From NCBI GenBank assembly GCA_963827955.1, contig CAWHDJ010000018.1, forward strand, positions 1,053,297 through 1,117,296: 64,000 nt of DNA. Direction: 5' to 3'. Shown here in pieces: positions 5,509 through 26,500 of the stretch (positions are counted from its first letter, which is position 1; every line of letters starts with the position of its first letter). The notes beneath the pieces are model-generated. The model saw nothing but the letters and a program-made list of their open reading frames with translations, was not told the DNA's origin and searched no databases. The DNA is from an uncultured delta proteobacterium. GTDB taxonomy: Bacteria > Myxococcota_A > Polyangia > Polyangiales > Polyangiaceae. The position numbers and the translations under genes were made by a program.

Positions 5509-6920
5509 ATGTCCGGCCCCGTCCGTGCTAACACGCGCGCCAACGTGCAAGGCGCCTTCCCGTCCGATTGGTCCGTTCTCGTGATCGACGACGATCGGGG
5601 GTCCGCCAGTCCCTTCGCCTCTGCCTCGAAGCCGCCGGTGCGCGCGTGTTCGGCGTGGGCACCAAGAGCGGCGCCATCGAGGCCCTCGAGCGGCGGCGCT
5701 TCGACGTGGTCCTCCTCGATCTCTGGCTCGGCGCCGAGTCGGGGCTCGACGTGCTGCCGGAGATCCTCCGACCAGCAGCCTGGCGTCGCCGTCATCGTCA
5801 TCACCGCGTTCGCCACGTTCGAGAGCGCCGTGCAGGCGATGAAGCTCGGCGCGGTCGACTATCTGCCCAAGCCGTTCACGCCGGAGCAGGTACGGCATGC
5901 GACCCAGGCGGGTCGTCGAGGCCCGCGTCCTGAAGCAGCGCGTCTCCGAGCTCGAGGAGCGGCTCGACGAGGCGGGCGCCGCCGGCTTCTTCGAGTCATC
6001 GAGCGCCTCGTTCCGCGGGTTCCTGCAAACGGCCGCGCGCGTGGCGGCGGCCGACTGCACCGTGCTCCTGCGGGGCGAGAGTGGGACCGGGAAGAACGTG
6101 ATGGCGCAGTGGGTCCGCGCGCACAGCCCGCGCGAGGGCGCGCCCTTCGTCAGCGTCAACTGCCCCGCGCTCTCCACCGAGCTGATGAGCAGCACCCTCT
6201 TCGGGCACAAGAAGGGGACGTTCACCGGGGCCGACGCCGACGCCGTCGGCAAGGTGCAGAAGGCCGAGGGTGGCACGCTCTTCCTGGACGAGGTTGGCGA
6301 CCTCGCGCCGGACGCGCAGGTGCGGCTGCTGCGCTTCCTCAACGATTGGTCCTACGAGCGCCTTGGGGAACCGAAGGAGCGCACAGCCGACGTCCGCCTC
6401 ATCGCCGCTACGAACCGGCCGCTCGAGGAGGAGGTTCGCGCAGGCCGCTTCCGCGAGGATCTCTTCTTCCGGCTCAACGTGGTGACGCTCACCTTGCCGC
6501 CGCTGCGCGAGCGGCTCGAGGACGCGTTGCCGCTCGCCCAGCACTACCTCCGGTTCTTCGCGAGGCGCAGGAGCCAGGAGCCGTGCGAACTCTCGCCCGA
6601 GGCGGAGCAGGCGATCCTCGCGCACGGTTGGCCCGGCAACCTGCGTGAGCTGTGCAACGCCGTAGAGCGCGCGACGATCCTCGCCCAGAGCCGGGTGATC
6701 CAGCCGCACGATTCCGGGCATCCCGAGCGTGGCGGGGCCTGTCTCGCGCCGCTCGGGCGCGGCGGTCGCGCTCGGTGCCGACGTCTCGCTGGACGAGCTG
6801 GAGCGCGAGCACATCGCGCGCGTGGTCGCGCGGGCGCCCACGCTGGAGGCCGCCGCGCGTACGCTCGGCATCGACGCGCGCACGCTACAGCGCAAGCGCA
6901 AGCACTACGGCCTCGCGTGA
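5509..6920 (+). CDS. Sigma-54-dependent response regulator of the NtrC family (receiver, AAA+ and Fis HTH domains). At least four frame changes are needed, near 5590, 5770, 5910 and 6720.
   Basis: Receiver pieces: SVLVIDDD, LRLCLEAAGARVFGVGTKSGAIEALERRRFDVVLLDLWLGAESGLDVLPEIL, and DQQPGVAVIVITAFATFESAVQAMKLGAVDYLPKPF. AAA+ sigma-54 core: LLRGESGTGKNVMAQWVRAHS...GAPFVSVNC...ESELFGH-like...GTLFLDEVGDL...RLNVVTLTLPPLRER. C-terminal HTH: REHIARVVARAPTLEAAARTLGIDARTLQRKRKHYGL. Confidence 0.8.
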
Positions 6921-6939
6921 GCCGGGGAGCCTCGGGGCG

Positions 6940-10218: not shown

Positions 10219-11616
10219 TCAGGGGCGGGCGTCCGCCGGCAGCTCGAGCAGGCGCTGGCCGAGAAGCCACACCTCGGCCACGCCGCCCTTGCTCGTGACC
10301 TTGAAGAGCTCCAGGCACCGCTCGCGCAGGTCGAGCAAGTCGCTCGCGTCGCGGCCGGAGCCCGCCTCGATGCGCGCGAGGACCTCGTTGACGCGCCCGT
10401 AGTATCTGTCAGCCGGAACAAGCAGGCCGCCGAGGGCGTGGTGCGTACGCGCATGGTTGTACCAGTGCAGGTGAGCTACGAGACGCCGCCGCATCTCTGC
10501 CGAATCATAGAAGCGATGGGCGTCGAACAGCTCCTTGTGGAGATTGGCGTTGAAGACCTCCACCTTCCCATTCCACTCTTTGTGCTCGGCCTCGAGGTGA
10601 TCGATCCCGAGCTCGGTCAAGAGCGCCGTGAAGCGCGAGACACCCTTCCACGACCAGAAGGCCGCGCCCTTGTCGCTCATCACCATCTCGGGTCGACCGT
10701 GGCGCGCGATTGCCTCCTCGAAGGCGGCGATCACGAAGTCGGCTCGCTCGCCGCCCTCGTCCACGCCATGGCCGACAACGTAGCGCGAGAAGTCGTCGAT
10801 GATGATCAGCGTGAAGGTGTTCGCGCGGTGGATGTTGCGCTGCACGAAGTCCAGATGCCAGAGGTGATTCGGGCGCGTCGCCTCGTAGCGCTGGTCGTGC
10901 ACCTTGCGCTCCACCTTCGGCGGGCGATACCCCGCCCCCTCCATCACCCGGCGCACCGTGTTGACGCTCGTCCGGATGCCCTTGCGCCGGAGCTGGTTGC
11001 GGATCTGGCTCGGCCCGAGCCCCGGATGGCGGTGCCACTCGTCGAGGATCTCCTTGTCGCGCTGCGCCTCGATCTCCTTCGGCGCCGGCCCCGACGTCGG
11101 CGATGGGCCGTTGCCCGCCGCGGCGCTGTGGACCTTCCGCTGCCAGCCGTAGATCGAGTACCGGCTCACGCCGAACTTCTTGCTCGCCTCGGTGATCCCA
11201 TGCGCGGCGGCGTGCTCGAGGACCTCGGCCTTCTGCGACGGCGTGTAGATCATTGCCACCCGCCTCTTGAGCGGTCGACGCACCGGCGGTTGCATGGTTG
11301 CCGCGGGCTCCTCGCGCTTCGCCTCGGCCGGCGGCGCCCCTACCTTCGTGTTCTCGGCCTGCTCCGCGCCGGCCTGCCCCGCTGCCACCTGCCCATCGCG
11401 CGTCTCCTCCTCCGCGGCTCCCTTCCGCTTGCGTCTGGGCCGCGCTCTTTCCTTCGACTTGCGCGCCATCGTCTTCGCCCCCGCTACTTGAGCCCACTTG
11501 GTCAGGGTCGTCTGGGGGACGCCATGCTTCCTCGCCGCCGCGCTGATTCCGAGCGCGGGAACGTCCACCAGCACCGCCTCGCGCTCCTCATTCGTGTAGC
11601 TTCGTCGCGCAGCCAT
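10219..11616 (-). mobile_element. Intact transposase ORF of an IS481-like (rve DDE) insertion sequence. The element probably spans about 10150-11700, but terminal inverted repeats were not resolved by eye.
   Basis: 465-aa uninterrupted ORF. It has two N-terminal HTH segments (RKHGVPQTTLTKWAQ; KKFGVSRYSIYGWQRK) and then HLWHLDFV...IIDDFSRYVVGHGV...SDKGAAF...HARTHHALGG, the DDE/rve signature. Confidence 0.8.
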
Positions 11617-11735
11617 CCGGTCCTCCTGCCGCGTGGGGCGCCTCGGGAGCGTCCGGAGTTTCAGCCCCGATCACGGACGGGCAGATGATGGACAAGCGCA
11701 CCTACCGCGATGGATGGGTAGAAGGGAGCGAACCC

Positions 11736-13046
11736 ATGACCTACCGCGCTGCCATCCCCGACCGTCTCTATCTCTGCCCCGCCTGCGGCGCCCCGGAGAA
11801 TGCGCCCATCCAGGGAGGACGGGTTGCCTGCACGCAGTGCCGCGCGAGCCACGTGCTGGCCGACCGCACCACCCTTCCCACGCATCCTGCCGTGTTCGAG
11901 ATGCCCCCGAACGATCCGGTGCGCCTCCAGTACCTCCGCGCGCAGGACGGGCGCCCGCGCCAAGTCCCGCCGACGCTCCAGGCGGTGCTGGGCGGGACGA
12001 GCGTACAGCCGGGCCGCGAGCAGGAGGCCCTCGCCATCTGGCAGTCGCTCCGCGCGCGGTCGCAGCGGGGTGACGTCGCGGCGAGCGAGGATCTCACGAC
12101 GCTCACGTTGATCCTCGTCCAGATGCCCTCGACGCGGCCCGAGCTCTGCGACGCGCTCTCGGAGAGCGCGTTCGACGCGGCGGTGCTACCGCGCCACCAG
12201 CAGGAGATGCTCGGCCGCCTCGCACGCGCCGCGATCGCGCGCGGGGATCGCGACCGCGCGCAGCGCTACCTCTCCTGGATGGCGCCGTGGTCGCCCGAGC
12301 TGGACATGGACAGCGAGCTTCGCCTCTCTGCCGCCGCGCTGGCGACCCTAGATCGCGATGGCCGGCGCGTGCTCGCCCTGCTCGGCGGACAGAAGGACGC
12401 GATCCCGATCGCCGACTCGATGGACGCGCTCGCCACAGTCTTCCGGGCCAACGCTTACGAGATGCTGGGCGACCCCGAAACCGCCGCACGTACCCTCCGC
12501 GAGCTGCCCGAGGCGAGGATGCTGCCGCTCGTGTGCAACGCCTTCTCGTCCTTGCGTCTCTGCCAGCAGTCGGCATCGGCGTACACCGCAGCCACGACTC
12601 ACGAGGCGGCGCGCCGTGCTGCATCGAGTGCGGAAGGTTTCGGCTTGATGTTCGGCGTCATTCTCGTTCTCACCGCGCTGCTCCAGGTGCCGTTCGCCTT
12701 CGTGGGCCGCCGCGCGAGCTACGTCAACCTCGTGATTGGCGCGATCATGGCGCTCGTCGGCGTCGCCGTCGCGGCACGCGCACAGGTCAAGGGCAAGCAC
12801 GCGGCGTGGCTGCGAGTGCATGGCCTCTCCCTCGCTGCGCGCATCCTGAGCGTTGAACCCACCGGCACGCGGATCAACAACGTGCCCATGTGCCGCGTCA
12901 GAGTCGAGGTCGCCGGCCCCGATGGGCCCTACTCGACCAGCTTCGACAAGCTGGTGCCGGAGCACCAGCTCGCGATGTTGGCCGGCGGAGACGTTCGCGT
13001 GCGAGCCAACCCGGGCAACCTCCAGGAGGTCATCCTCGAGGAGTGA
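11736..13046 (+). CDS. Hypothetical protein with a zinc-ribbon N-terminus and C-terminal transmembrane helices.
   Basis: ORF 11685..13046. The N-terminus has CPACG...CTQC and there are two hydrophobic helices near the C-terminus (GLMFGVILVLTALLQVPFAF; LVIGAIMALVGVAVAA). The start was chosen at MTYRAAIPDRLYLCPACG, although the ORF opens at 11685 just 69 bp from the IS transposase start. Confidence 0.45.
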   Translation: MTYRAAIPDRLYLCPACGAPENAPIQGGRVACTQCRASHVLADRTTLPTHPAVFEMPPNDPVRLQYLRAQDGRPRQVPPTLQAVLGGTSVQPGREQEALAIWQSLRARSQRGDVAASEDLTTLTLILVQMPSTRPELCDALSESAFDAAVLPRHQQEMLGRLARAAIARGDRDRAQRYLSWMAPWSPELDMDSELRLSAAALATLDRDGRRVLALLGGQKDAIPIADSMDALATVFRANAYEMLGDPETAARTLRELPEARMLPLVCNAFSSLRLCQQSASAYTAATTHEAARRAASSAEGFGLMFGVILVLTALLQVPFAFVGRRASYVNLVIGAIMALVGVAVAARAQVKGKHAAWLRVHGLSLAARILSVEPTGTRINNVPMCRVRVEVAGPDGPYSTSFDKLVPEHQLAMLAGGDVRVRANPGNLQEVILEE

Positions 13047-13392
13047 AGGCTGGGGACCGACCCCATCGGCCGCAAGGTGGCCCCGCTCCTCACTACGCGC
13101 ACCCCGCCTGCCGACGGTCTAACGCAACGCGACACGCTCGCCGCATTAGGCGTGCGCAGCGCCCACAGCCCGCAGCCACGGCCGCTTCCATCGACCATCA
13201 GGAACCGCTCTGGTCGCGCATCCGCACGCTCTCCCGGGCCCGGCGCCACGTACGAGAACGCCTCGCGCGTCGATTTCCCTAAAAAAAGACGGACACCGGG
13301 AAGGGCCCTACAGCGATGGACGGGTAGAGGCGGTGAAAGGACCGGACCGGCGCCCCGGGGGGGGCGGCGCTTTGCCCGGAGAAGGTGACCCC

Positions 13393-15688
13393 ATGCACGA
13401 CGTCTTCAAAATCAGCTCCCCCGCGCTACCCAAGGACACGGGTGTGGTCGGCTTCCGCGGCTCGGAGGGTATCTCCCGGCTCTACGCGTTCGAGATCCAC
13501 CTGGCGCTCGCCCCTGGCGACGCGGATGCCTTCGAGCTCCCCTCGCGCCGTGGGCGCCAAGGGCACCCTCACCGTCGACCGGCACGACGGCCGCCCGCCA
13601 TTCGCCTTCCACGGCATCTTCGCCGAGGCGACGCTCGTCCACCAGGAGCCCGACGGCCGCGCCTTCCTCCGGGCCGTCCTGGTGCCGCGCCTCTGGCAGC
13701 TCACGCAGTCGCTGCACAGCCGCATCTTCACCCAGCAGTCCATCCCCGACATCCTGAAGAAGACGCTGGAGGATGGCGGGCTCACCTCCTCTGACTTCAG
13801 CTTCCAGCTCACCGGCCAGTACGCCACGGAGGAGCACGTCTGCCAGTACCGCGAGAGCGGCTTCGCCTTCTTCTCGCGGTGGATGGAGCGGGAGGGCCTC
13901 TACTACTTCTTCGAGCACGGCGACGACGGGGAGAAGCTCATCATCGCCGACGACAAGTCCGCGCACGAGGGTCTGGTGCCCAAGCCGGTGCGGTACTTTC
14001 CCCTTCTCGGGCATGACATGAGCGCTGGGGAGTGCCTGCACACCTTCCTGTGCCGGCAGCGAGCGCTTCCGGCCAGCGTGACCTTCAAGGACTACGACCA
14101 CGCGAAGCCCTCGCTCGACGTCTCCGGAACGGCGCCCGTATCCGCGACGGGCGCCGGCGAGGTGCACGTCCACGGCGCGCGATTTTTCACGCCCGACGAC
14201 GGCAAGCGCCTCGCCAAGCTTCGCGCGGAGGAGATGCTCGCCCGCCAACAGGTATTCACCGGGACCGGCACCGCGCTCTACCTGCGGTCGGGCTACACGT
14301 TCGACCTGACCGATCACCCGCGGGCTGCCTTCGACGCGACGTACCTCGTGACCGAGGTGGAGCACTTCGGTAACCAGGCGGCCAGGACCCCGGAGATGCT
14401 CAGGCTCACGGGGCTCGCGGAGGTGGCGGAGGACGAGGTGTACCGCGCCGAGGTCACGGCCATCCCCGCTACCGTGCAGTTCCGGGCAGAGCCGCGAGCG
14501 GTCTGGCCGCGGATTTATGGCACCGAGCACGGCACGGTGGACGGGGAGGCCGACAGCGAGTACGCGCAGCTCGACGACCATGGGCGTTACCTCGTCCGGT
14601 TCGCGTTCGACGAGAGCGACCTGGCCGATGGGAAGGCGTCGACCCGCGTCCGGATGATGCAGCCTCACGGCGGCGGGGTCGAAGGCTGGCACTTCCCGCT
14701 GCGAAAGGGGACGGAGGTGCTGTTCACGTTTCTGGGCGGGGACCCAGACCGACCCGTAATCGCGGGCGTCGTGCCGAACACGGAGAAGCCGAGCCCGGTG
14801 ACGAAGGCGAACCAGACACGGAACGTGATCCAGACGGGCGGGCGCAACAGGCTCGAGATCGAGGACAAGAAGGGGTTCGAGCGGATCACGTGGACCACTC
14901 CGTTCGCGAACACGATGATCCGCATGGGCTCACCGAACGCCGACCACGAGATGATCATCCGGACCGACGGCGCCACGCAGCTCGACGCAGGGCAGGATTG
15001 GGATGTCACTGTTGGCGGACACCTGTTCGAGCATGTGACCGGCCCGGTCGCCGAGAACTATGACACCGGGCATGGGACGACGATCAAGGGCGGTCGAATC
15101 CAGAACGTGACGTCGGGCGGGATGACCACCGACGTCGTTGGTGGCTGGTCCCACACGGTGGACGGTGGGGGCAAAATGGACATCGACGGCGGCTTCAAGG
15201 TGAACGTCACCGGCGACGCGATCACGACCGTGAGCGCTGACGCGGAGACCTTCGTAGGTGCCAACGAGGCGCACGTCGTCGGCGGCACCGCGACGCACAT
15301 CGTCTGCGGCTCGGTATTCCAGAACTACGGCCCAGTGACGGCTGTGTGCGCGAGCCTAGACTGGAGCATCCCCGGCGGCGCGACGGTCCACACGCCAAAG
15401 TGGGAGGTCCAGTCGCCCGAGAAGAACTGGCTCACGGCGCAGGGCATCGAGACGAAGGGCATCAACAAGGAACTCACTGGCCTCAGCTTCGAGACCACTG
15501 GGGTCCTGGTCGAAAGCGTCGGCGGTCACGTGGAGAACGTCGGTCTGCACGTCGAGACCATCGCTCTTCACTTCGAGACCGTCGGAATGCACGGAGCCAA
15601 CAAGCCGATCGAACTCGAAAGCCTCGGCACGTACGTGGGCCAACTCGGCGCGCACATCAAGTCGGCCGTGCTTCACGTGCTCAAGTGA
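13393..15688 (+). CDS. vgrG: Type VI secretion spike protein VgrG (TssI), with a frameshift near 13545.
   Basis: N-terminus MHDVFKISSPALPKDTGVVGFRGSEGISRLYAFEIHLAL in ORF 13333..13794 continues in ORF 13385..15688 with FFSRWMEREGLYYFFEHGDDGEKLIIADD, the gp27-like VgrG hallmark. A Gly-rich gp5-like beta-helical C-terminus is present (GGHLFEHVTG...GGRIQNVTSGG...). Confidence 0.85.
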
Positions 15689-15704
15689 AGGTGCGAGGCA
15701 CGTC

Positions 15705-18330
15705 ATGAAGGTCATCAAGCCCATCAAGCTCCCGATTCTCACCCGCATTGTAGAGCGCGCCCATAAGCCGGAAGCTCCACGTTGCCGCCATGCTCGGCTT
15801 CTCGCTTGACGCCCCCCGCGCCCTCCTCGACGAGATGGCCTTCTGGTCCACGGTGGCCGACGCGCTCGGCGCCTCGGGCGTGGTGGACGAGGGGTTCGCG
15901 AAGTGCCGGGGCGAGCTGCTCGTCGCCGGAAGCTTCTTCGCACCGGACGGGATGCCGCTGGCTGCCTCGTACGTCCGCACGAGGGTCGGCGCGGCGGACA
16001 AGCGCCTCGCAGTTGTCGGCAACCGCCTATGGAAAGACCATGCCGCGACCGATCCGGAGCCGATGGTGTCGATGCCGATCGACTGGGCGCACGCGTTCGG
16101 CGGTCCGCGCTTCGACCGGAACCCCTACGGCAAGGGCATCGACCCGCTGGTGAGCGGGGGGCTGGCGATCCCGCTCCCCAACGTCGACCACTACGGCGCG
16201 ATTACGCGCTCACCGGCCGACCGCGGCCAGCCCGCCGGCTTCCTGCCGATGGACGTCACCTTCGCCCAACGGCGGGCGCGCGCGGGGACGTACGATCAAC
16301 ACTGGCTCGACGAGCACTTCCCGGGCCTAGCCGCGGACGCAGCGCCGACCTTCTTCAACGTCGCGCCCGAGGATCAGTGGATCGAAGGCTTCTTTCGCGG
16401 CGATGAGGAAATCCTCGTCGAGAACATGCACCCCGAGCGTCCCCGTATCGAGGGCCGGCTCCCGGGCCTCGCCGCGCGCTGCTTCGTCACCCAGCGCGTG
16501 CCCGAGGGTGAGCGCTTCGTCGAGGTCCCGCTCCGCTGGGACACGGTCTGGCTCTTTCCCTCAGCCGCGGCCGCAGTCGTTATCGCGCACGGTACGCACG
16601 CGGTCTCCGAGGACGACGCCGCGGACGTGGTGCACCTGATCTGTGGGTGCGAGGACCCGACGTCGCAGCGGCCGGCGGAGCATTACCAGCAGGCGCTCGC
16701 ACGCCGCCTCGACAAGGACAAGGGCGCCCTCGCCGGGCTCTCGGACAGTGACCTGATGCCGCCGCGCGCGTCGGGCGTGGCTCCGAATATCGGCGAAATC
16801 GACATCGCGCGGTGGGTGAAGAGCGAGGGCCTGCACGCGAAGAACATGCGGCGGGGCGCACAGCGGACGCGCGCGGAGGTGAGGGCGATGGTCGAGGCAA
16901 ACGGGCTCGACCCGAAGGACTACGGACTCGGCGAACCTCTGCCCGAGCTAGAAGAGCCGCCGGTCGACGACCTCGATGCGCTGGCGGCCTACATGGAGGC
17001 GCAATCGGCGCGTGCGGACGCGATGCTCGCGGAGGCCAGGGACAAGGAGGCGAACGCGCAGGAGGACGTACGGAGGAAGTGCGCGGAGATGGGGGTCGAC
17101 CTCGACGCGATGATGGCGGAGGGAAAGAAGGGGGGCGTGGGGCCGCCGAAGCTCGACGCCGCGACCGAGGTCGAGAGGCTGCGCGATGTAGGCGTGAGAG
17201 GTGCGGAGGTCGACGCACTCAAGGCCGACGTGCGGCGGCAGGAGCAGGGCCTGATCGAGATGTACCGGCGCTTCGGGCACATGCAGCCCGCTGCGACCGC
17301 CATGGATCCGGAGGCGGCGGCGCGGCTGCGGGTGCTCGTCGCGCTCGCGATCGAGACCGGAGAGAGCCTCGCAGGGCGGGACTTTACGGGCGCGAACCTC
17401 TCCGGAATGCGCCTTGGCCACGTCGATCTCGCAGGGGCCTTCCTCGAAGCGGCCGACCTCTCGGACTGCTGGCTCGGCGACGCGAATCTGGAGGGCGCCG
17501 TGCTCGCGAAGGCGACCCTGCGGGGCGCCAGTCTCTTCAGAGCGAGGCTGCGTAGCGCGAATCTCGGCGGCGCTGTGCTCTGCGATGCGGTGTTCGAGCA
17601 CGCGGATCTCACCGATGCCGTGCTGAGCGAGGCCGACCTTGCCGGCGCGCGGTTCGCGGGCGCGACGCTCACGGGCGCGGATTGGATCGAGGCGAAGCTC
17701 GCCGGGGTGGACTTCTCCGGCGCCGTGCTGAGTCAGTGCAACCTGATCAAGGCGGACCTGCGCGGCACGCGCTTTACCCGTGCGGACCTGTCCGACGCGA
17801 ACCTCGTCGAGTGCACACTCGACGGGGCGGACTTCTCGGGCGCCAAGCTGGTGAAGACTACGTTCGTGGGATGCAAGGGTGAAGGAGTGTCGTTTCGCGA
17901 GGCGAATGTCCGGCAGGGGGTCCTCGTGCACGGCTCCTCCTTCGTGCGCGCCGACTTCCGCGATGCAGACATGGAGAAGGCCAACCTCCGGGGGACCGCC
18001 CTCGCGGGAGCGCACCTCGACCGGGCGAACCTCACCGGCGCGGACCTCTCCGAATGCGATGCCACTGGGGCCACCTTCGAGCGCGCAGTCCTCAAGGGGG
18101 CGCTCATGATTCGCACCGGCCTCGTCGACGTAACGCTGCGGGGCGCGAACCTGATGGATGCCCTCGCGTCCAAGGCTCGGCTCGCCGGGGCCGACTTCTC
18201 GGGGGCCAACCTCTTCCGCGCAGACCTCTCCCGTGTGGTCGGTGATGAACGGACGACGTTCGCCGAGGCGGAGCTGGGTCACGTGCGGCTCCTCCCGAAG
18301 GCCAACGTGCATCCCGGAGGTGCCCGATGA
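15705..18330 (+). CDS. DUF2169-like N-terminal domain fused to a long pentapeptide-repeat C-terminus. This is a T6SS accessory or adaptor candidate, with a frameshift near 15770.
   Basis: ATG at 15705 gives MKVIKPIKLPILTRIVER..., a DUF2169-type start. It is then out of frame with ORF 15790..18330. The C-terminal approximately 350 aa are A(D/N)LxGA-type pentapeptide repeats (ANLSGMRLGHVDLAGAFLEAADLSDCWLGDANLEGAVLAKATLRGASLF...). Confidence 0.75.
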
Positions 18331-19424
18331 ACCGCGATCTGCTCATGGACAAGGTGCGGCACGGCGAGCCCATCCGCCGCATGGATCTCTCGCATGTCGA
18401 TCTCGAAGGCGCCGATCTTTCCGGGGCCGTGTTCGAGGAGGTCCGCTTCCCGAAGGCGCTTCACGGGGCGCTGCTCAAGGAATCGGTCTTCGTGTCGTGC
18501 GACTTCACGGAATGCGACCTAGCCGGCGCGGACCTGCACCTCGCCACCGTGTATCGCTCGAAGCTCGACGGTGCGCTCTTCGATGCGGCCAAGCTGATCG
18601 CGGCGAGCTTTGTCGAGAGCAGCGCTGACGGCGCTTCGCTCACAAGCGTCGAGGCCCCGATCGCGAGCTGGGTGAAGACCTCGCTCCGACGCGCGTCGTT
18701 CGTGGGCTCGAACCTCGACCGAGCGAACCTCGTGGAGATCGACGCCGAGGATGCAGTGTTCACGAACGCCAACCTGGAGAAAGCGACGCTCTACCAGGCC
18801 GACCTGCGCACGACCGACCTCGCGGGCGCGAACCTCACGCTCACGACGCTGGTCGAGGCCAAACTGGGGCCGAAGTCCTTCTCCGGCATCCGGCTCTTCC
18901 GGACGCAGTTCATGAAGAGCGACCTCGCGGGCGCCAGCTTCGCAGGCGTCGACTGCACGCAGTGCAACTTCATGGCGGCGGACCTCCAGGGGGCGACGTT
19001 CGAGCGGGCCACGGGGCCGCAGTGCTTCTTCGGCGAGGCGAAGCTCCAAGGTGCGAGGCTCGTCGGCGGCGACTTCCGCCAGGCCGTGTTCGAGAAGGCG
19101 GACCTCTCGAAGGCGGATCTCTCTGGCGCGATGCTCGAGGAGGCGTACTTCGCGCTCGCCGTCGCCGTGGGAGCTCGCTTTCGCGACGCCAGGCTGCGAG
19201 AGGCGAACTTCTCTCACGCCGACGCCACGGCGGCCGACTTCTCCGGGGCGGCTCTCTTTCGGACGAGGTTCCACCGCGCGAAGCGCGACGGCGCCGCCCT
19301 CGCCGAGCTGGCGGGGTGGCTCGGCGATGACGAGAACCTCGCAAGGATCGAACGCTGGCAGCCGCAACACGGGGCGGCGCCTGATCGAGATGTGGACGGG
19401 CAAAGGAAAGGGTCGGAACGATGA
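18327..19424 (+). CDS. Pentapeptide-repeat protein associated with the T6SS module.
   Basis: Start overlaps the upstream stop (ATGA). Repeats include DLSHVDLEGADLSGAVFEEVRF, ANLEKATLYQADLRTTDLAGANLTL and ADLQGATFERA. Confidence 0.8.
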   Translation: MNRDLLMDKVRHGEPIRRMDLSHVDLEGADLSGAVFEEVRFPKALHGALLKESVFVSCDFTECDLAGADLHLATVYRSKLDGALFDAAKLIAASFVESSADGASLTSVEAPIASWVKTSLRRASFVGSNLDRANLVEIDAEDAVFTNANLEKATLYQADLRTTDLAGANLTLTTLVEAKLGPKSFSGIRLFRTQFMKSDLAGASFAGVDCTQCNFMAADLQGATFERATGPQCFFGEAKLQGARLVGGDFRQAVFEKADLSKADLSGAMLEEAYFALAVAVGARFRDARLREANFSHADATAADFSGAALFRTRFHRAKRDGAALAELAGWLGDDENLARIERWQPQHGAAPDRDVDGQRKGSER

Positions 19425-20065
19425 ACGCCGCGAAGAAGCTCGCTAGCACGGAGACGTACCTCGAGACCGGGACGGTGGAGCGCATCCTCAGCGGGACGGT
19501 CGAGGTGCGGCACGCCTCGGGAACCTGCCAAGCCCGGCGCGCGAAAGGTTGCCTCGTGCCTCCCGAGATCGGCGACACGGTGCTCTGCGCGCGAAGCGCG
19601 GAGGGCGCGTGGGTGCTCACCGTGTTGGAGGGCGAGGCGGGCGCGCCGACGCGGCTCGTCGGGGACGGCGACGTGCACATTCAGTCCCAGGGCGGCCGGG
19701 TCACGATCTCCTCGCCCGAGCGGGTCGACCTCGTGAGCGGCGGCGCCGTCGCGGTAAGCTCAGCCGAGCTCCACGTGCACGCCCGCAAGGGCTCCGTCGC
19801 CGTGGACGAGCTGGGCTTCCTCGGCAAGCTGGTGCGGGCGGAGGTGGCGAAGATCGTCGTGGTCGCCGAAGAGGTGGACTCCGTTCTCACGCGGCTGACC
19901 CAGCGGGCCAAGCGCGTCTTCCGCTTCGTCGAGGAGATCGACCAGACGCGCGCCGGCACCGTCGACATGCGCGCCCAGAACCTCGTCGGCATCCGCGGGG
20001 AGAACGCCGTGATCTCGGCGCGGGTGCTCGCCAAGATCGACGGTGAGCAGATCCACCTCGGCTGA
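19421..20065 (+). CDS. DUF3540-like protein, which commonly follows pentapeptide-repeat genes in vgrG islands.
   Basis: 214-aa ORF with overlapping start (ATGA). The call rests on gene context and size and was made from memory of the family, not from a search. Confidence 0.6.
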   Translation: MNAAKKLASTETYLETGTVERILSGTVEVRHASGTCQARRAKGCLVPPEIGDTVLCARSAEGAWVLTVLEGEAGAPTRLVGDGDVHIQSQGGRVTISSPERVDLVSGGAVAVSSAELHVHARKGSVAVDELGFLGKLVRAEVAKIVVVAEEVDSVLTRLTQRAKRVFRFVEEIDQTRAGTVDMRAQNLVGIRGENAVISARVLAKIDGEQIHLG

Positions 20066-20092
20066 GCGACGAGCAAGGAAGGAGGCTCCTCC

Positions 20093-20494
20093 ATGTTGGC
20101 GAAGACATCCGCTGGCGGGCTCTGCACCGCATTTCCGGACGTGTGCCTGACACCCGCACCGCCCGCGCCCGCGCCGGTCCCGATCCCCTACCCGAACATC
20201 GGCGCCAATCCCACCAACGTGAGCTTCGTGCCCAACGTGCTCCTGACGTGCGCCCCGGCGCACAACATGGGCACGCAGCCACCGATGACGAACGGTGACA
20301 ACGCCGGCCTGGCAACCGGCGTCGCCTCCGGGACCGTGATGGGCCCGGCGCGCACGGTGACCGCGGCGTTCACAGTTCTCGTCGGGGGCATGCCGCTCGC
20401 ACGGCTCACCAGCGTGACGATCCAGAACAACACGAACGCCCCCGGCGCCAAGGTCGTGCCCAGCGCCACCAACGTCCTCGTCCTGGCCCCGTGA
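20093..20494 (+). CDS. DUF4150 (PAAR-like) domain protein. It is a standalone 133 aa with no fused toxin domain.
   Basis: MLAKTSAGGLCTAFPDVCLTPAPPAPAPVPIPYPNIGAN..., the PAAR-like DUF4150 N-terminal signature. It ends 10 bp before the next ORF, which is in a different frame. Confidence 0.7.
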   Translation: MLAKTSAGGLCTAFPDVCLTPAPPAPAPVPIPYPNIGANPTNVSFVPNVLLTCAPAHNMGTQPPMTNGDNAGLATGVASGTVMGPARTVTAAFTVLVGGMPLARLTSVTIQNNTNAPGAKVVPSATNVLVLAP

Positions 20495-20504
20495 GAACGC
20501 GCAC

Positions 20505-21953
20505 ATGAACGAGCAGAACCGACAGCGGCTAGGGCGCATCGCCACGCGGCACACCCGTTGCGTGGCGCATGGGCAGAGCGAGACCGAGAGCGACGCGACG
20601 TTCATCGCCGAGTTCGGACGCGTCCGAGATGAAGTGCTGCGACCCGTCATGGATGAGGTGGGTCTCCAGCTCCAAACGGACGGGTACGAGTTTCGGATCG
20701 CCAATGGGGGCACCGAAGCATCGCCCGCGGTCGAGTTCCACGTCGTGATCCCGGGCCGCACCGACGCGAAGGACACGATCCGGCTTTTCGCGCACAAGGA
20801 CGCCTTGCGTGGCTGGCAGGTGATCGCCGAGATCGAGCTCAAGCGAAGCCCGATGGAGCTGGCTCGCTTTGACGCCGGCGACCCGATCACGCGGGACGTC
20901 GCCGAGCGGCTCATCGTGGACGCGACGGAGCAAGTGTTCGCGTCGGCGCTGTCGGCCCCGAGCCGAGAAGCAGAAGCGCGCGCAACGCCGTCGGAGTCGG
21001 TGTCACCGCGACCGCCGGTAGCGGACGTGGCTCCAGCGGCCACTGGCCCGCACCCTGCGGAGGGCGCAGTCGGCGCGCGCGCCCTCGTCCTCCAGCGGCT
21101 CCGTGCCGGCCGCCTTCTCTACGGTCTCAACCTCGTTGGCGCCGACCTCCACGGCATCGACTTTACGGACCGTATGATGCCCGCGCTCGACCTCCGAGAA
21201 GCGAACCTGAGCGGCTGCACCCTCGTCGGGGCGCGACTCGTCGCCGCACGGCTCGACGGCGCCGACCTCACCGACACGGACCTGACGCGCGCCGACCTCA
21301 CACGCGCCAACCTCATCGGCGCTACCCTGACGGGCGCCCGGCTCGACGGAGCCGTGCTCAGCGATACGGTGGGCTTGCAGCTCGCTCCCGCAGACGCTCC
21401 CGAGCCCGAGCCGGAGCCGGAGCCTCGCGCTGTAGAAGCGCCCGCGGAGCACGTCGACGTCTTCGCCGTGCCCGACAAGCCGCCTCCGCTGCCGCCCTTG
21501 CCCGCGGGCCCGGAGATCCGCTGGGCGGGTTGGGCTGGAGAGCAGCGCATGGGCGACACGGAGGAGGTGGACGTGCGGGTCTTCCAGCGACGCGCACTTC
21601 CCTTCGCTGAGGGGCCCCCGGCACCGGAGTTCTTTGCCGCTGCGGACGCCGCGAGAACGGAGCCGCGCGTCTCGCGACCCCCGGGAAACGAGACCGTGGC
21701 ACTGCCCGTGCTCCAGGTGCCCGACGAGCCGCTGACCGTGGAGCAGTACGCCGCGTTCTGCGCGGAGCTGTCGGTCTTTCCGGACGCTGCGGACAGCATC
21801 CATCGGCAGTACGGCGTGCCCGGCGCGGAAGCGCGTGGCCTCCTCGATGCGGCGTTCGCGCGACGGTTCGCCGCCGACCCGACGCTCGAGCGAAAGTGCC
21901 GCGCGCTGGTCCGGCACTACGAGGGCTGGTTCCGTCGCGAAGGTCCGCGGTAG
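20505..21953 (+). CDS. Unknown three-part protein with a novel N-terminal domain of about 150 aa, central pentapeptide repeats and a novel C-terminal domain of about 150 aa. It is a candidate T6SS cargo or immunity protein.
   Basis: Central repeats: LNLVGADLHGIDF...LREANLSGCTLVGARLVAARLDGADLTDTDLTRADLTRANLIGATLTGARLDGAVL. The flanking domains match nothing I recognise. Confidence 0.65.
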   Translation: MNEQNRQRLGRIATRHTRCVAHGQSETESDATFIAEFGRVRDEVLRPVMDEVGLQLQTDGYEFRIANGGTEASPAVEFHVVIPGRTDAKDTIRLFAHKDALRGWQVIAEIELKRSPMELARFDAGDPITRDVAERLIVDATEQVFASALSAPSREAEARATPSESVSPRPPVADVAPAATGPHPAEGAVGARALVLQRLRAGRLLYGLNLVGADLHGIDFTDRMMPALDLREANLSGCTLVGARLVAARLDGADLTDTDLTRADLTRANLIGATLTGARLDGAVLSDTVGLQLAPADAPEPEPEPEPRAVEAPAEHVDVFAVPDKPPPLPPLPAGPEIRWAGWAGEQRMGDTEEVDVRVFQRRALPFAEGPPAPEFFAAADAARTEPRVSRPPGNETVALPVLQVPDEPLTVEQYAAFCAELSVFPDAADSIHRQYGVPGAEARGLLDAAFARRFAADPTLERKCRALVRHYEGWFRREGPR

Positions 21954-22148
21954 CCGAACGGCTGCCGGCGCAACGCCCCACCATGACTTCAACGCCCCCT
22001 GCGGCAGGGGTGCGCAGAACTGCGCCCGAAGGGTCGCGAGCCCTCACGGGCCAAGGGACGCGGTGTGCTTCACGCGACCGGAGAGGGAGGAGTGGACGAT
22101 GATGAGCAGCGATCGAGCAAAGGCGATGGAACGACGCGGAGGCAGTCG

Positions 22149-23318
22149 ATGAGCACGACCGCACCGCCAGCATCGGGACCTCGTCCCGCCCCCAACCATC
22201 CCTCGGCGACGACCAGCGCGCCAGCGCCGTGCGCGCCCGCGCTCCTGCCAGCGGCCGGGATCGCCCTCGGGGAGGAGCTCGGCGGCGACGCCCTGGACGC
22301 GGGGGCCGCTCATCGACCCGAGGTCGACGTCGAGACCATGCGCTCCATCCATGCGCAGGTGCGCGATCTGGTACGGAGGGAATCGTCCGTGGGTGCGCCG
22401 GGATTCCGATTGGTCTGCGTGCTCGAAGGCGACATCTCCTGGCGCGACATCCGAATCGACGGGCCTGGCTACGCGGTCCTTGGCTCGCATCGCGGGTGCG
22501 ACGTCGTGCTCGCGCGCGATCGCGGCATCTGGAGACGCCATCTCGCCGCGATCTGCGTCCCCGTCGAGGATGGGCGCGTGGGCCTACGGCTGGTCGGTCT
22601 CGCGACCGACCAGCCGTTCTTTCTTGACGATGACACGCCACGACAGGCGGTCCTGGTGCGAGGGTCCTTCGCGATGCGCGTAGGCCGCCATGTCATCTGC
22701 GGCTTCCCCATCGGAGAGCGCGCAGACATCGGCAGCCCGTCCGAATTCACCCTCTGCCCGCCCGTCTCGCAACTTGGCGCGGTCAGCTCGGTCGGTGACG
22801 TCCGAGTGATCCTGGTCCGCGGCCACGTCGGAGCCGTCGTTGACCTTCCGGCAGCGGCGTTCGATGGCGGCGTGCTCATCGGCCGGGCGCTCCGATGCTG
22901 CGACGAGGGGCTCCGTCGGGTCTGCGGGGACGCGATCTCGCGCGGTCACGTGCTCATCGTGCGCGTCGGCGGAGACATGCTCGCCTTCGATCTCTGCTCC
23001 AGCAACGGCACCCGGGAGGCCGGGGTCCGCGTGCGGCGGGCCCGGCTGCGCGGCGCCGCACCAAGACTTCAGCTCGGCAAGGACGTGATCCTGACAATCG
23101 CGCTCCCCGGGCTTTGGGTCGGAGGGGATCCGCATGCCGACATCCGCGCTCGGGTACCCGGTCACCCAACGTTTGGAGACTGCTCCGAGCGCGAGTGCAT
23201 GGTCTGCGGCGTACGAGACTGCCCTCGCGGGGACCCTCTTCACTACCAACAGGATGGCTGCCCAGCCTGCGGGGTTGATTCCCCCCGCGGACCGGCCACG
23301 CCAGGAGATGCCGCATGA
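22149..23318 (+). CDS. Protein with two FHA domains. The start is uncertain.
   Basis: GYAVLGSHRGCDVVLARDRGIWRRHLAAICVPVEDGRVGLRLVGLATDQPFFLDDD and GVLIGRALRCCDEGLRRVCGDAISRGHVLIVRVGGDMLAFDLCSSNGTREAGVRV both fit the FHA pattern (GR..cD..l.d..vSR.Ha.i......l.Dl.S.NGT). Confidence 0.6.
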   Translation: MSTTAPPASGPRPAPNHPSATTSAPAPCAPALLPAAGIALGEELGGDALDAGAAHRPEVDVETMRSIHAQVRDLVRRESSVGAPGFRLVCVLEGDISWRDIRIDGPGYAVLGSHRGCDVVLARDRGIWRRHLAAICVPVEDGRVGLRLVGLATDQPFFLDDDTPRQAVLVRGSFAMRVGRHVICGFPIGERADIGSPSEFTLCPPVSQLGAVSSVGDVRVILVRGHVGAVVDLPAAAFDGGVLIGRALRCCDEGLRRVCGDAISRGHVLIVRVGGDMLAFDLCSSNGTREAGVRVRRARLRGAAPRLQLGKDVILTIALPGLWVGGDPHADIRARVPGHPTFGDCSERECMVCGVRDCPRGDPLHYQQDGCPACGVDSPRGPATPGDAA

Positions 23319-23570
23319 ACCACACTTCCCACGGAATCGTGGCCGCACGGCAGGCGTTGCTCGACAGCATCGCGGCGGAGGTGAGCGCGTTCCTGCCTCG
23401 GCTTCCCAGCCGTCGCCCACGAAGCGTCGCCGCGGTTCAAGCGGGTGTATGAGAACTTGGAGACGAACTCCCGCGGGGGCCTTCGATCCTCGGCGGAAGC
23501 GCTCTCCTTTCACCCTCCCGACCCTCGCGGGTCGAGCCGACGCCTGTAGGAGTGTATCCTCTGGCGTTCC

Positions 23571-26500
23571 ATGGAAGCTGGAGCCATTTTGCAGGGTCGC
23601 TACCGCGTGGTCCGCGCAGCGGGCGCCGGCGGCATGGGCGGCGTCTATCGCGCCGACAATCTCGCCACGGGCCGCGCCGTCGCGCTGAAGGTCCTCCTGC
23701 ACCAAGACGCCGCCGCGTCGAGCCGCTTCGTGCAGGAGGCCCAATCGCTCGCGGCGGTGAGCCACCCGGCGATAGTCGGCTACGTGGACCACGGCGTGGC
23801 CGAGGAGGGGCGCCTCTTCCTCGTGATGGAGTGGATCGAGGGCGAGGATCTCGCGGCGGTGCTGGCGCGCGGGGCGATGGCTCCGACGGAGGCGCTCGCC
23901 GTCGCGCGCCGCGTGGCGGCCGGGCTGGCCGCGCTACATGCGGCGGGCGTCGTGCACCGCGACCTGAAGCCCGCGAACGTCGTGCTGGAGAGCGGCGATC
24001 CGGCGCGCGCGCGCATCGTCGACCTCGGCATCGCACGTGCAGGATGGCGCACGCGGGCACTGACACGCACGGGCGCCATCCTGGGGACCGCGGGCTACAT
24101 GGCCCCTGAGCAGATCGAGGCGTCGCGCGGCGCCGACTCGCGCGCGGACGTGTACGCGCTCGGGTGCGTCCTGTTCGAGTGCCTCGCGGGCCGGCCGGCG
24201 TTCGATGGCGGGCACCTGCTCATGGTGCTCGCGCGGGCGTTGGGCGACGAGCCGCCGCGCCTGCGCGAGATCGTCCCCGGCGTGCCGGACGAGATCGACG
24301 CGTTGGTTGCGCGGATGATGGCGCGCCACCCGGCGCAGCGCCCCGAGGACGGCGCCGCGGCTCTTGCGGCCCTCGAGCGCGTCGCGGCGTGGGGGGACGC
24401 CGCCTCCACCGCGGCGCCGGGCGCGGCGGAGGGCGTGCCTCTGCGGGGGGAGCGGAGGCCCCTGGGCCTTGTGCTCGCGCGCGCGCCAGACGACCTAGCC
24501 GACGCGACGATGGACGCCGCCGACGCCGGAGCCGCGCACGCGGCCGCAGATGTGGTCGCGGCCCGCTGGGGAGCGCGCGCGTGGAGCTTCGGCGCCGACG
24601 CCCTGGCGCTCGTCGTTCAGCACCCGGGCGGCGCGCGCGAGCAGGCTGCGCGATCCGCGCGAGCGGCGCTCGATCTGGAGGCGAGGCTCCCCGGGTGGAC
24701 CCTCGCGGTGGCGACCCCGAGCGCCGACATGAGCGGCGAGGTGCTGGCCGCCGTAGTCGACCGCGCGGCGGGGCTGCTCGTGGCGGGCGCCGGAGGCGTG
24801 CGGCTCGACCCGGTGACGGCCGCGTTACTCGACGTGGGCTTCGACGTCGAGCACACGGGCGCGGGGGCGCTCCTCTGCGGCTTCTCGGCGGCGCGCGACG
24901 ACGCCCGGCCGCTCCTGGGCAAGCTGACGCCGTGCGTGGGCCGCGAGGCGGAGCTGCGGTTGCTCGAGGGCGCGCTCGCCGCGTGTGACGACGAGCAGGC
25001 CCCGCGCGCGGTGGTCGTGCTCGCCGACGCGGGCTGGGGGAAGTCCAAGCTCCGCCGCGAGATCATCGCGCGCGCCCGCGAGCGGGGGACGGTGCGCGTC
25101 GTTCAGGCGCGCGCGGAGATGGACGGCGCGCTACACGGCCTCGGGATCGTGCGCTCGCTGCTCGCCGACGCCGCCGGGCTCGGCGACGAGGCGGGCTCAG
25201 CGCGCTGGCGGGCGCTCGCTGGGCACGTCGAGCGGACGATCGCGGGGGCGAGTGCGGACCTCGTGGAGATTTGCGGCGAGCTCGCGGGCGCGCCCCCGCC
25301 GGAGCCGGGGGAGGCGCTCCGAGCCGCGCGCAAGGATCCCGCGGAGCTGCGCTGGCGGGCGATCGAAGCGGTCGCGGCTTGGCTGCGGGGCGAGGCCCGC
25401 GAGCGGACGGTGCTCGTGTCGCTGGAGGATCTGCACCAGGCGGACGCCAGCAGCGTCGGGGTGCTCGTCGAGGCATGGAAGGAGCTGGGCGACACGCCGG
25501 TGCTCCTCGTCGGCACCGCCCGACCCGAGGTCGACGACCTGCACCCTCACCTCTTCGCGATGCGCGGGATGCAGACGGTGCGGCTCGGCCCGCTAGCGCG
25601 CCGCGCAGCGGAACGGCTCGCGCGGCAGGCGCTCGGCGACGGGACGCCGGCGGATCGCGTCGCCCGGATCGTCGACCGCGCGGGCGGCCACCCGCTGCTC
25701 CTGGAGGAGCTGGTGCGCCACGCAGCCGCCGCGCGCGACGACGCCGAGGCGCCGGCGTCGGTGCTCGCGCTCCTGCAATCGCGCCTGCTCGCGCTCGATC
25801 CGGCGGCGCGCCGCCTGCTCCGCGCGGCGAGCGTGTTCGGGGAGCGCTTCCCGCCCGAGGGGGTCCTCGCTTTGCTGCCGGAAGGCGCACGCGCCGACGT
25901 CCCCGTGCTGCTCGACGCGCTGACGCACGAGGAGCTGGTCGTCGCCCCTCGGCGGGGCGCGACGGACGCCGAGGGGTACGTCTTCCGGCACGCGCTCGTG
26001 TGCGCCGCCGCCTACGACATGCTGCCCGCGGACGAGCGCGCGGCCGCCCACCGCGCGGCGGCCGCATGGCTCGCAGCGCGCCCCGAGTCCGACGAGGCGG
26101 CCGTCGCCGATCAGCTCGCGCGGGCCGGCGACGCCGCCGCAGCCGCGCCGTGGTTCCTCCGGGCGAGCCGGAGAGCGGCGGAGCGCAGCGGGGTCGTCGA
26201 GGCGATCGCGCTCGCGCGCCGAGGGCAAGCCGACGGCGTGGACGTCGGGCTCCACGTCGAGCTGGTCGTCGAGGAAGCCTGGGACCTCATGAACCTCGAA
26301 GACCTTGCCGCCGCTTTCACGGCGCTCCACGACCGGGTGCCCTGGTCCCGCCTCCGGGTCGGGTCGCCCCTGTGGGTGATGGCGAAGGCGAGCGAGGCGG
26401 CGCTGGCCGGCTTCGCCAGCGAGCCAGGAGCGCTCGTCGAGGGCGTCGGCGCCCTGCTCGCGCAGACGGTCGAGCCCCCTCCTCCCATCGAGACGTGGGG

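What the first reader, a model, noticed from the sequence alone, without database searches (positions are those of the whole stretch)
13393..21953. Orphan type VI secretion spike and cargo module with vgrG, DUF2169 fused to pentapeptide repeats, a second pentapeptide-repeat protein, DUF3540, DUF4150 and an unknown protein
Six co-oriented, tightly packed genes are seen. Three junctions use ATGA overlaps and one gap is 10 bp. VgrG has the gp27-like motif WMEREGLYYFFEHGDDGEKLIIADD. The next protein begins MKVIKPIKLPILTR (DUF2169-type) and ends in about 350 aa of pentapeptide repeats. A second pentapeptide-repeat protein, a DUF3540-sized protein and a PAAR-like DUF4150 protein (CLTPAPPAPAPVPIPYPN) follow. 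No tssB/C, hcp, tssM or clpV lies anywhere in the 64 kb, so this is a satellite spike-loading module, not a core cluster. From established knowledge, DUF2169 proteins act as adaptors for DUF4150-fused effectors in Agrobacterium (the Tde2/Atu3641 pair). By inference, the pentapeptide repeats and DUF3540 are poorly understood accessories and the last gene is cargo.
Basis: partly seen in the sequence, partly recalled or inferred. Interest (0 to 1): 0.7.

Follow-up and report, generated by a model that had tools for sequence, protein, structure and literature searches.

The report
Orphan T6SS spike-assembly (Tvp class III) module
This is a satellite copy of an already described type VI secretion "spike-tip assembly" gene set (VgrG, TvpAB, TvpB, TvpC, PAAR-like) in a Polyangiaceae-type myxobacterium; the only new part is a sixth gene that, in this lineage, always follows the PAAR-like gene and whose role is unknown.

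Summary
The six co-oriented genes are real and every domain call holds: VgrG, DUF2169 fused to pentapeptide repeats, a pentapeptide-repeat protein, DUF3540, and DUF4150 with a PIPY motif.

Corrections to the observation:
- vgrG and the DUF2169 gene each carry a +1 frameshift near the 5' end.
- There are two ATGA overlaps, not three.
- The "unknown" last protein also contains pentapeptide repeats.

The five-gene core is a known system: Tvp class III of Serratia (EMBO J 2026), DUF2169 synteny type C (JBC 2025) and Burkholderia tagAB/tagB/tagC/tagD. A TvpC trimer that mimics VgrG nucleates a pre-complex with the PAAR-like cap, TvpAB and TvpB, and VgrG then replaces TvpC.

No T6SS core gene lies in the 64 kb, and none was found in the scanned flank ORFs of five related Polyangiaceae loci.

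The sixth gene belongs to a family defined by a ~150-aa N-domain. In about ten independent loci this gene lies next to the Tvp genes, in most directly after the PAAR-like gene. It has no toxin domain and no conserved partner gene, and it often occurs as the 150-aa domain alone. An accessory or adaptor role is therefore somewhat more likely than classical toxic cargo, but neither is shown.

Verdict: a new member of a known kind, of modest interest.

The parts
13393..15688 (+). vgrG (TssI spike). It is 764 aa once one C of the CCCC run at 13539-13542 is removed. About 300 residues follow the OB-fold and carry no added effector domain.
   Evidence: Pfam Phage_GPD 1e-67 and Phage_base_V. The corrected protein matches TIGR03361 at 321 bits. 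The frameshift was located by comparison with homologues.
15705..18330 (+). tvpAB (tagAB): DUF2169, a helical middle region and about 300 aa of pentapeptide repeats. It is 874 aa once one base at ~15772-15774 is removed. As deposited, the intact ORF runs 15790-18330 (846 aa).
   Evidence: Pfam DUF2169 1.3e-74 and Pentapeptide 4.6e-57. PDB 8vth (a DUF2169 protein) matches at 3.6e-15. N-termini were compared with homologues. The listed full-length homologues are ~864-960 aa and align over the whole query, N-terminus included.
18327..19424 (+). tvpB (tagB): a stand-alone pentapeptide-repeat protein of 365 aa. Its start overlaps the tvpAB stop as ATGA.
   Evidence: Pfam Pentapeptide 5e-49. It is 59-76% identical to the same-position gene in related loci. 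Junction sequence read.
19421..20065 (+). tvpC (tagC): a DUF3540 protein of 214 aa. In the literature this family is an OB-fold plus beta-prism trimer that mimics VgrG. Its start overlaps the tvpB stop as ATGA.
   Evidence: Pfam DUF3540 3e-64 across the full profile, plus a weak DUF2345 (VgrG C-terminal) hit. Junction sequence read. The structural description comes from PMC13373197 and was not modelled here.
20093..20494 (+). PAAR-like cap (DUF4150 / 'PIPY' domain; Paar1/TagD equivalent). It is 133 aa and has no fused toxin.
   Evidence: Pfam Tox-PAAR-like 2.6e-37. The PIPY motif is visible in the translation. It is 85-97% identical across nearly all related loci.
20505..21953 (+). Sixth gene (482 aa). 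Its parts are: a conserved N-domain (aa 1-150, nt 20505-20954); a disordered linker; a pentapeptide-repeat insert (aa ~190-292, nt ~21072-21380); a disordered region with an RWAGWAG...LPF...PPAPxFF motif; and a C-terminal four-helix domain (aa ~410-480).
   Evidence: The N-domain model is helix-helix-five strands-helix with pLDDT 82. The gene lies 10 bp after the PAAR-like gene. Homologues hold the same position in L005, L007, L008, L010, L011, L014, L015 and L017.

Best explanation
The locus is an orphan (satellite) class III Tvp module of a type VI secretion system, in an uncultured Polyangiaceae-like myxobacterium of ~70% G+C.

Mechanism, taken by homology from the Serratia marcescens system:
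1. [quoted passage not shown]
2. The PAAR-like PIPY cap sits on that trimer.
3. The DUF2169 domain of TvpAB shields the hydrophobic face of the cap, and the helical and pentapeptide-repeat parts of TvpAB wrap the prism.
4. TvpB closes the assembly like a seat belt.
5. The long-prism VgrG then replaces TvpC. This gives a capped, chaperoned spike that a T6SS baseplate encoded elsewhere can load and fire. The chaperones stay behind.

The sixth gene is a lineage-specific addition that is tightly coupled to the PAAR-like gene. Its N-domain most likely binds the capped tip as an extra adaptor or co-chaperone, or as a passenger. In this copy it has also acquired a TvpB-like repeat segment.

What is shown and what is inferred:
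- Shown here: gene identities, gene order, conservation and the orphan context.
- Inferred from literature: the assembly mechanism.
- Inferred from context only: the role of the sixth gene.
For: All five core families were recovered with strong scores.

The gene order VgrG-TvpAB-TvpB-TvpC-PAAR is identical to the class III / synteny type C / tagAB-tagD arrangement described in PMC13373197, PMC11883445 and PMC13584744.

The same order is conserved in Sorangium cellulosum So ce56, Sorangium sp. So ce1014, Minicystis rosea, two Polyangiaceae MAGs and several metagenome contigs.

NCBI itself names homologues 'DUF2169 family type VI secretion system accessory protein'.

The corrected VgrG is 764 aa with about 300 residues after the OB-fold. 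This falls in the 700-800 aa range the paper reports for Tvp-associated VgrGs; it reports longer prisms for class III.

No T6SS core family was found in about 45 window ORFs, nor in the scanned flank ORFs of the relatives.

Sixth gene:
- Its homologues lie directly after the PAAR-like gene in most of about ten independent loci.
- Eight further contigs appear to hold both a homologue of the sixth gene and a TvpAB homologue. This is inferred from matching contig lengths.
Against: vgrG and tvpAB each carry a +1 frameshift in the deposited sequence. If these are real, the module is non-functional.

No T6SS core was seen, so function depends on a machine that could not be looked for.

No structure of TvpC, and no model of the complex, was computed here.

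Distant members of the N-domain family occur outside T6SS contexts and in an archaeon.
Confidence: 0.85

Rival explanations
1. This is a spike-loading module whose last gene is the toxic cargo. The cargo docks on the PAAR-like cap or on VgrG through its conserved N-domain and is delivered into target cells.
For: The gene sits where cargo effectors usually sit, 10 bp after the PAAR-like gene. It has a conserved N-domain followed by variable C-terminal parts, as in modular effectors. Pentapeptide repeats also occur in secreted T3SS effectors such as PipB/PipB2; the match is weak and below cut-off. The module has no other candidate effector.
Against: No toxin domain was found in Pfam, NCBIfam or PDB searches. 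The gene downstream differs in every locus, so there is no conserved immunity partner. Many relatives are the 150-aa N-domain alone. The C-terminal 'ALPF motif plus helical domain' also occurs in an unrelated ORF of the same window at 46670-47623. In the Serratia class III model system no separate cargo gene exists.
Confidence: 0.22
2. The module is a decaying relic. The two frameshifts are real, vgrG and tvpAB are pseudogenes, and the island is being eroded by mobile elements.
For: There are two +1 frameshifts. An IS3-family transposase lies ~1.8 kb upstream of vgrG, at 10219-11616. A 75-nt vgrG fragment is found elsewhere in the window, at 44945-45019. The related locus L011 is interrupted by an IS21 element. 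The deposited record calls the same truncated 846-aa ORF.
Against: A third, unrelated gene nearby is also frameshifted: the sigma-54 activator, whose HTH_8 domain lies in a shifted frame at 6699-6917. This points to assembly indel errors. The vgrG site is a homopolymer run and the tvpAB site lies at an AA doublet. Apart from the single extra base, both genes are full length, with high third-position G+C (0.87-0.88) and no internal stops.
Confidence: 0.2
3. The locus is the edge of a canonical T6SS cluster that begins just outside the window.
For: Only 13.4 kb lie upstream of vgrG. In Serratia the equivalent vgrG1 is the first gene of the main cluster.
Against: About ten unrelated genes fill the 13 kb upstream (a porin, a Sel1 protein, a sigma-54 activator, a histidine kinase, a transposase). 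The 42 kb downstream hold no core gene. The scanned flank ORFs of five related loci, including three complete genomes, show no core gene within 10 kb either.
Confidence: 0.05

Closest known systems
Serratia marcescens Db10 VgrG1-TvpAB-TvpB-TvpC-Paar1 (class III Tvp system; Monlezun, Earl and Coulthurst, EMBO J 2026, PMC13373197)
   Same: The five protein families are the same. The tvpAB-tvpB-tvpC-paar order downstream of vgrG is the same. The PAAR-like cap stands alone. The VgrG is long (764 vs 786 aa) and has no recognisable toxin domain.
   Different: The Serratia set lies at the start of the main T6SS cluster, and an immunity gene (vai1, DUF3192) and another ORF lie between vgrG1 and tvpAB. 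Here the set is orphan, vgrG and tvpAB are 16 bp apart, no DUF3192 gene was seen, and a sixth gene follows the PAAR-like gene.
Burkholderia T6SS-5 tagAB-5/tagB-5/tagC-5/tagD-5 (Shalom et al. 2007, as summarised in PMC13584744)
   Same: The domain set and arrangement are the same. In Burkholderia these genes are required for sheath assembly and Hcp secretion.
   Different: The Burkholderia genes are embedded in a core cluster, and VgrG5 carries a C-terminal effector domain. Neither is the case here.
DUF2169 'synteny type C' (Sachar et al., JBC 2025, PMC11883445)
   Same: A multidomain DUF2169-pentapeptide protein, then a pentapeptide-repeat gene, DUF3540 and a DUF4150/PIPY protein, with a vgrG. 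This type accounts for about 37% of all DUF2169 genes.
   Different: No conserved gene after the PIPY gene is described for that synteny type.
Agrobacterium tumefaciens VgrG2-Tap2(Atu3641)-Tde2 (class I) and Pseudomonas aeruginosa VgrG1b-PA0096-PA0097-PA0098-Tse7 (class II)
   Same: A DUF2169 chaperone paired with a DUF4150 cap on a dedicated VgrG.
   Different: In both of those systems the cap is fused to a toxin and there are no pentapeptide-repeat partners. Class II uses a short DUF6484 mimic and TvpD in place of DUF3540 and TvpB.
Myxococcota VgrG/DUF2169/OB-fold/PAAR clusters next to COMMD-like genes (Liu et al., Nat Commun 2026, PMC13392464)
   Same: The same kind of module in Sorangium and Polyangium. 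A trimer plus three single-copy partners was predicted there independently. Ser/Thr kinases are often nearby, as they are here (23571-27413).
   Different: No COMMD-like protein could be recognised in this window by sequence.

Membership tests
Class III Tvp system (TvpAB/TvpB/TvpC/Paar1 with VgrG) | A TvpA (DUF2169) domain fused to a C-terminal pentapeptide-repeat domain (TvpAB) | tested here: met
   Pfam DUF2169 1.3e-74 and Pentapeptide 4.6e-57 in one ORF. PDB 8vth (DUF2169) matches at 3.6e-15.
Class III Tvp system (TvpAB/TvpB/TvpC/Paar1 with VgrG) | A separate pentapeptide-repeat protein (TvpB) encoded next to TvpAB | tested here: met
   The 365-aa ORF at 18327-19424 matches Pfam Pentapeptide at 5e-49. 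It overlaps tvpAB as ATGA.
Class III Tvp system (TvpAB/TvpB/TvpC/Paar1 with VgrG) | A long TvpC of the DUF3540 family (not DUF6484) | tested here: met
   Pfam DUF3540 3e-64, profile positions 2-199 of 199.
Class III Tvp system (TvpAB/TvpB/TvpC/Paar1 with VgrG) | A DUF4150 (PIPY) PAAR-like protein | tested here: met
   Pfam Tox-PAAR-like 2.6e-37. The motif VPIPYP is present.
Class III Tvp system (TvpAB/TvpB/TvpC/Paar1 with VgrG) | A dedicated VgrG of about 700-800 aa with an extended beta-prism | tested here: inconclusive
   The corrected VgrG is 764 aa and matches TIGR03361 at 321 bits. About 300 residues follow the OB-fold and match no other domain. The prism length was not modelled.
Class III Tvp system (TvpAB/TvpB/TvpC/Paar1 with VgrG) | TvpC trimer folds as an OB-fold plus beta-prism, and the pre-complex TvpC3-Paar-TvpAB-TvpB forms and is then exchanged for VgrG | not testable with these tools
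BLASTP of TvpC against VgrG shows no sequence similarity, as expected for a purely structural mimic.
Class III Tvp system (TvpAB/TvpB/TvpC/Paar1 with VgrG) | Intact reading frames | tested here: inconclusive
   vgrG and tvpAB each have one extra base. A neighbouring sigma-54 activator gene is also frameshifted, which suggests assembly error. No independent reads cover these sites.
Functional T6SS accessory module | A T6SS core (TssA-M, Hcp, ClpV) in the same genome | not testable with these tools
   None was found in the 64-kb window. The rest of the 1.78-Mb source contig could not be retrieved.
T6SS cargo effector (for the sixth gene) | A toxin domain together with an adjacent conserved immunity gene | tested here: not met
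   No toxin family was found in Pfam, NCBIfam or PDB. The downstream neighbour differs in every locus.
COMMD-like protein linked to myxobacterial VgrG clusters | An HN helical domain plus a COMM domain (three strands and a long helix) | tested here: not met

The most novel reading that the evidence does not exclude
The ~150-aa N-domain family encoded right after the PAAR-like gene is a previously undescribed sixth component of a Polyangiaceae sub-clade of class III Tvp modules. It could be either an extra tip co-chaperone or adaptor, or an immunity-less passenger that rides on the PIPY cap. In some members, including this one, it has captured a TvpB/TvpAB-like pentapeptide-repeat segment. In most loci that lack it, a second DUF2169-pentapeptide paralogue is present instead.
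Probability: 0.4. Interest if true: 0.5.

Novelty: new member of a known kind. Interest (0 to 1): 0.3.

Why it matters
The core module adds nothing new in principle. It shows that the recently defined class III Tvp spike-assembly set exists as compact orphan islands in Polyangiaceae, next to transposase and recombinase genes.

The part that can be used is the sixth gene. It is a small, well-conserved domain with a confident predicted fold and a fixed position after the PAAR-like cap. That makes it a concrete candidate for an additional spike-tip partner in myxobacteria, a group where T6SS cargo and loading are little studied. It could be tested directly by complex modelling and pull-downs.

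The finding also warns that automated annotation of this record truncates tvpAB and splits vgrG.

Tried and rejected
1. Sigma-54 promoter upstream of vgrG. A TGGCAC-N5-TTGC scan gave 15 matches against 15.6 expected, and none lies in 13047-13392. The sigma-70 promoter and terminator scans were at chance level.

2. TvpC against VgrG by BLASTP: no similarity.

3. COMMD-like protein in the window, as reported near such clusters in Myxococcota. PDB sequence searches with the 215-aa ORF and with a concatenate of eight unassigned ORFs found nothing. This is not a strong test.

4. Fold search with the full model of the sixth protein returned only pentapeptide-repeat structures. The AlphaFold-database library was unavailable.

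5. Retrieving the source contig to look for a T6SS core or an independent copy of the frameshift sites. Only a 3.4-kb Logan contig was returned. It covers 20051-23484 and differs from the window by 3 substitutions and 1 indel. Look-ups for TvpAB, TvpC and P0277 failed. P0277 is simply the window's own truncated ORF.

6. Neighbouring genes as conserved module members. The upstream 453-aa protein (11685-13046), the FHA protein (22149-23318) and the Ser/Thr kinase have no counterparts at equivalent positions in related loci.

7. A tRNA or integration site bounding an island. The only prediction is a doubtful tRNA-SeC at 39027-39118.
Full report
**Observation.**
The window has ~70% G+C with a strong third-position bias. 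Six + strand genes fill 13393-21953.
- Phage_GPD/VgrG, E 1e-67.
- DUF2169 (1.3e-74) fused to pentapeptide repeats (4.6e-57).
- A second pentapeptide-repeat protein, 5e-49.
- DUF3540, 3e-64.
- Tox-PAAR-like/DUF4150, 2.6e-37.

The quoted peptide motifs are all present. The PAAR-like motif contains PIPY, the hallmark of DUF4150 caps (PMC11883445).

- Only two junctions are ATGA overlaps, at 18327 and 19421. The other gaps are 16, 27 and 10 bp.
- The repeat tail of the fusion protein is about 300 aa.
- The 'unknown' last protein itself carries about 100 aa of pentapeptide repeats.

**Frameshifts.**
The long vgrG ORF listed by the ORF finder (13385-15688) is not in frame with the real start at ATG 13393. 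Comparison with homologous N-termini places a +1 shift in the CCCC run at 13539-13542. Removing one C gives a 764-aa protein that matches TIGR03361 from profile position 1, at 321 bits.

The DUF2169 gene likewise starts at ATG 15705 (MKVIKPIKLPILTR...) but has one extra base at about 15772-15774. The intact ORF therefore begins at 15790 and lacks 28 residues. The listed full-length homologues (about 864-960 aa) align over the whole query, N-terminus included. The public record holds the same truncated 846-aa ORF, so that record is not independent evidence.

A third, unrelated gene 7 kb upstream is also frameshifted. It is a sigma-54 activator whose HTH_8 domain lies in a shifted frame at 6699-6917. 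Three single-base frameshifts in 12 kb, in otherwise full-length genes with normal codon bias, one of them in a homopolymer run, are more likely assembly indel errors than decay. I could not settle this.

**What it is.**
The five-gene core is a described system, known under three names:
- DUF2169 'synteny type C' (Sachar et al. 2025).
- Burkholderia tagAB/tagB/tagC/tagD.
[quoted passage not shown] 2026).

In Serratia, TvpAB, TvpB, TvpC and Paar1 are each essential for firing of VgrG1-containing machines. TvpC (DUF3540) is predicted to be an OB-fold plus beta-prism trimer that mimics VgrG. A TvpC-TvpAB-TvpB-Paar1 pre-complex forms first, and VgrG1 then replaces TvpC. DUF2169 shields the hydrophobic face of the cap, and TvpB closes the assembly.

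The window's set matches each sequence-level criterion; see the membership table. The structural and biochemical criteria could not be tested here.

**Context.**
Pfam and NCBIfam scans of about 45 ORFs across the 64 kb found no TssA-M, Hcp or ClpV.
- Upstream: a porin, a Sel1 protein, the sigma-54 activator, a histidine kinase, an IS3-family transposase (10219-11616) and a 453-aa zinc-ribbon/TPR/two-transmembrane protein.
- Downstream: an FHA protein, a 1280-aa Ser/Thr kinase with an AAA_16 domain, an HTH protein and a serine recombinase.

A genome-collection scan with TvpC found the same module in Sorangium cellulosum So ce56, Sorangium sp. So ce1014, Minicystis rosea and two Polyangiaceae MAGs, at 58-67% TvpC identity. 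This places the source among Polyangiaceae-like myxobacteria. The flanking ORFs I scanned in those loci show no core genes either. These modules are therefore orphan islands in the family, some of them next to transposases. Whether the source genome has a core T6SS could not be checked.

**The sixth gene.**
Homologues fall into one family defined by a conserved N-domain of about 150 aa, 55-75% identical among close members. Downstream of that domain the proteins vary:
- nothing, or a short tail;
- or a disordered region with an RWARWAG...LPF...PPAPxFF motif and a four-helix C-terminal domain;
- with or without a pentapeptide-repeat insert of about 100 aa.

A full-library profile search found 180 cluster representatives. 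Most of the distant ones are stand-alone proteins of 145-170 aa.

Genomic position:
- In the window, L005 (Minicystis), L007, L008, L010, L011, L014, L015 and L017 the gene lies immediately after the PAAR-like gene. In L018 it lies next to tvpC.
- Eight more contigs appear to carry both a family member and a close TvpAB homologue, judged by matching contig lengths.
- A distant member (L012) is not T6SS-linked, and one hit is archaeal.

Other observations:
- The gene after it differs in every locus.
- The C-terminal motif-plus-helical module also occurs in an unrelated ORF of the window at 46670-47623. It is therefore a general myxobacterial module.
- The repeat insert is most similar to the repeat part of a second DUF2169-pentapeptide paralogue. 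That paralogue is present in the five named relatives and was not seen in the loci that carry the full sixth gene.

Taken together, the gene is a genuine, lineage-specific member of the module and probably a physical partner of the capped tip. A classical toxin with an immunity partner is disfavoured, though a passenger without immunity is not excluded. My estimates are:
- about 0.4 that it is an accessory or adaptor;
- 0.2-0.25 that it is cargo;
- the remainder for immunity, regulatory or unrelated roles.

**Comparison and verdict.**
The locus works like, and by sequence criteria is a member of, class III Tvp systems. It differs from the Serratia and Burkholderia examples in three ways:
- it is orphan;
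- it has no genes between vgrG and tvpAB (no Vai1-like immunity gene);
- it has the added sixth gene.

The mechanistic framing should be updated to the Tvp model, and the cargo assignment is unproven.

Novelty: a new member of a known kind, with a possibly new accessory family attached. Interest is modest (0.3).

Noticed in passing
window 5897-6943 and 6699-6917: The sigma-54 activator gene (AAA+ domain and lid) has its C-terminal Fis-type HTH_8 domain in a shifted frame. This is a third single-base frameshift near the module, which suggests indel errors in the assembly.
   Followed up: partly
window 44945-45019 (also 42440-46565): A 75-nt copy, 93% identical, of the vgrG segment 13878-13952 encodes MEREGIYYFFEQGDDGEKLIVAD. 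It sits among direct repeats: 42577-42812 matches 43714-43949, 42440-42537 matches 44678-44775, and 45095-45413 matches 45938-46259. It looks like a relic of a second vgrG or a recombination scar.
   Followed up: partly
window 46670-47623: This 317-aa ORF has two copies of the helical 'L(T/G)xEQYAxL...' domain and repeated ALPF motifs. It is the same module as the C-terminal half of the sixth gene family, so the module is probably a widespread myxobacterial one of unknown function.
   Followed up: no
L002 11177-13672(-), L003 11369-13744(-), L004 1339-3735, L005 191-2569, L006 10916-13216: A second DUF2169-pentapeptide paralogue of about 770-830 aa lies next to the module in all five named Polyangiaceae relatives. 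No second PAAR-like gene is detectable nearby. It was not seen in the loci that carry the full sixth gene.
   Followed up: partly
window 10219-11616(-) and 30599-31951(+): An IS3-family transposase ~1.8 kb upstream of vgrG and a large serine recombinase 8.6 kb downstream of the module. The recombinase ORF overlaps the next ORF (31746-33140) by 200 nt, which may be another frameshift. No island boundaries were identified.
   Followed up: no
window 22586-22617: A perfect 14-bp G+C-rich hairpin followed by a T-rich tail lies inside the FHA-protein ORF (22149-23318). That ORF has the lowest third-position G+C of the region (0.77). A Logan contig (L001) differs from the window by one base inside this ORF, at 22935.
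   Followed up: no
window 39512-40462 and 60729-61200: Long imperfect inverted and direct repeats (68-84% identity over 200-550 nt) appear in the self-comparison of the window. Their nature is unknown.
   Followed up: no
window 35346-37658: A 770-aa ORF with extreme third-position G+C (0.98) has no Pfam or NCBIfam match. The 1316-aa ORF at 40176-44126(-) is likewise unassigned.
   Followed up: no
window 50400-53550: About 3 kb of Arg/Pro/Ala-rich sequence with coding-like signal that switches between frames and has no clean long ORF. It is either low-complexity sequence or a gene with several frameshifts.
   Followed up: no
window 39027-39118: ARAGORN predicts a tRNA-SeC that overlaps the 5' part of the minus-strand ORF 38514-39281. 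It is possibly a false positive.
   Followed up: no
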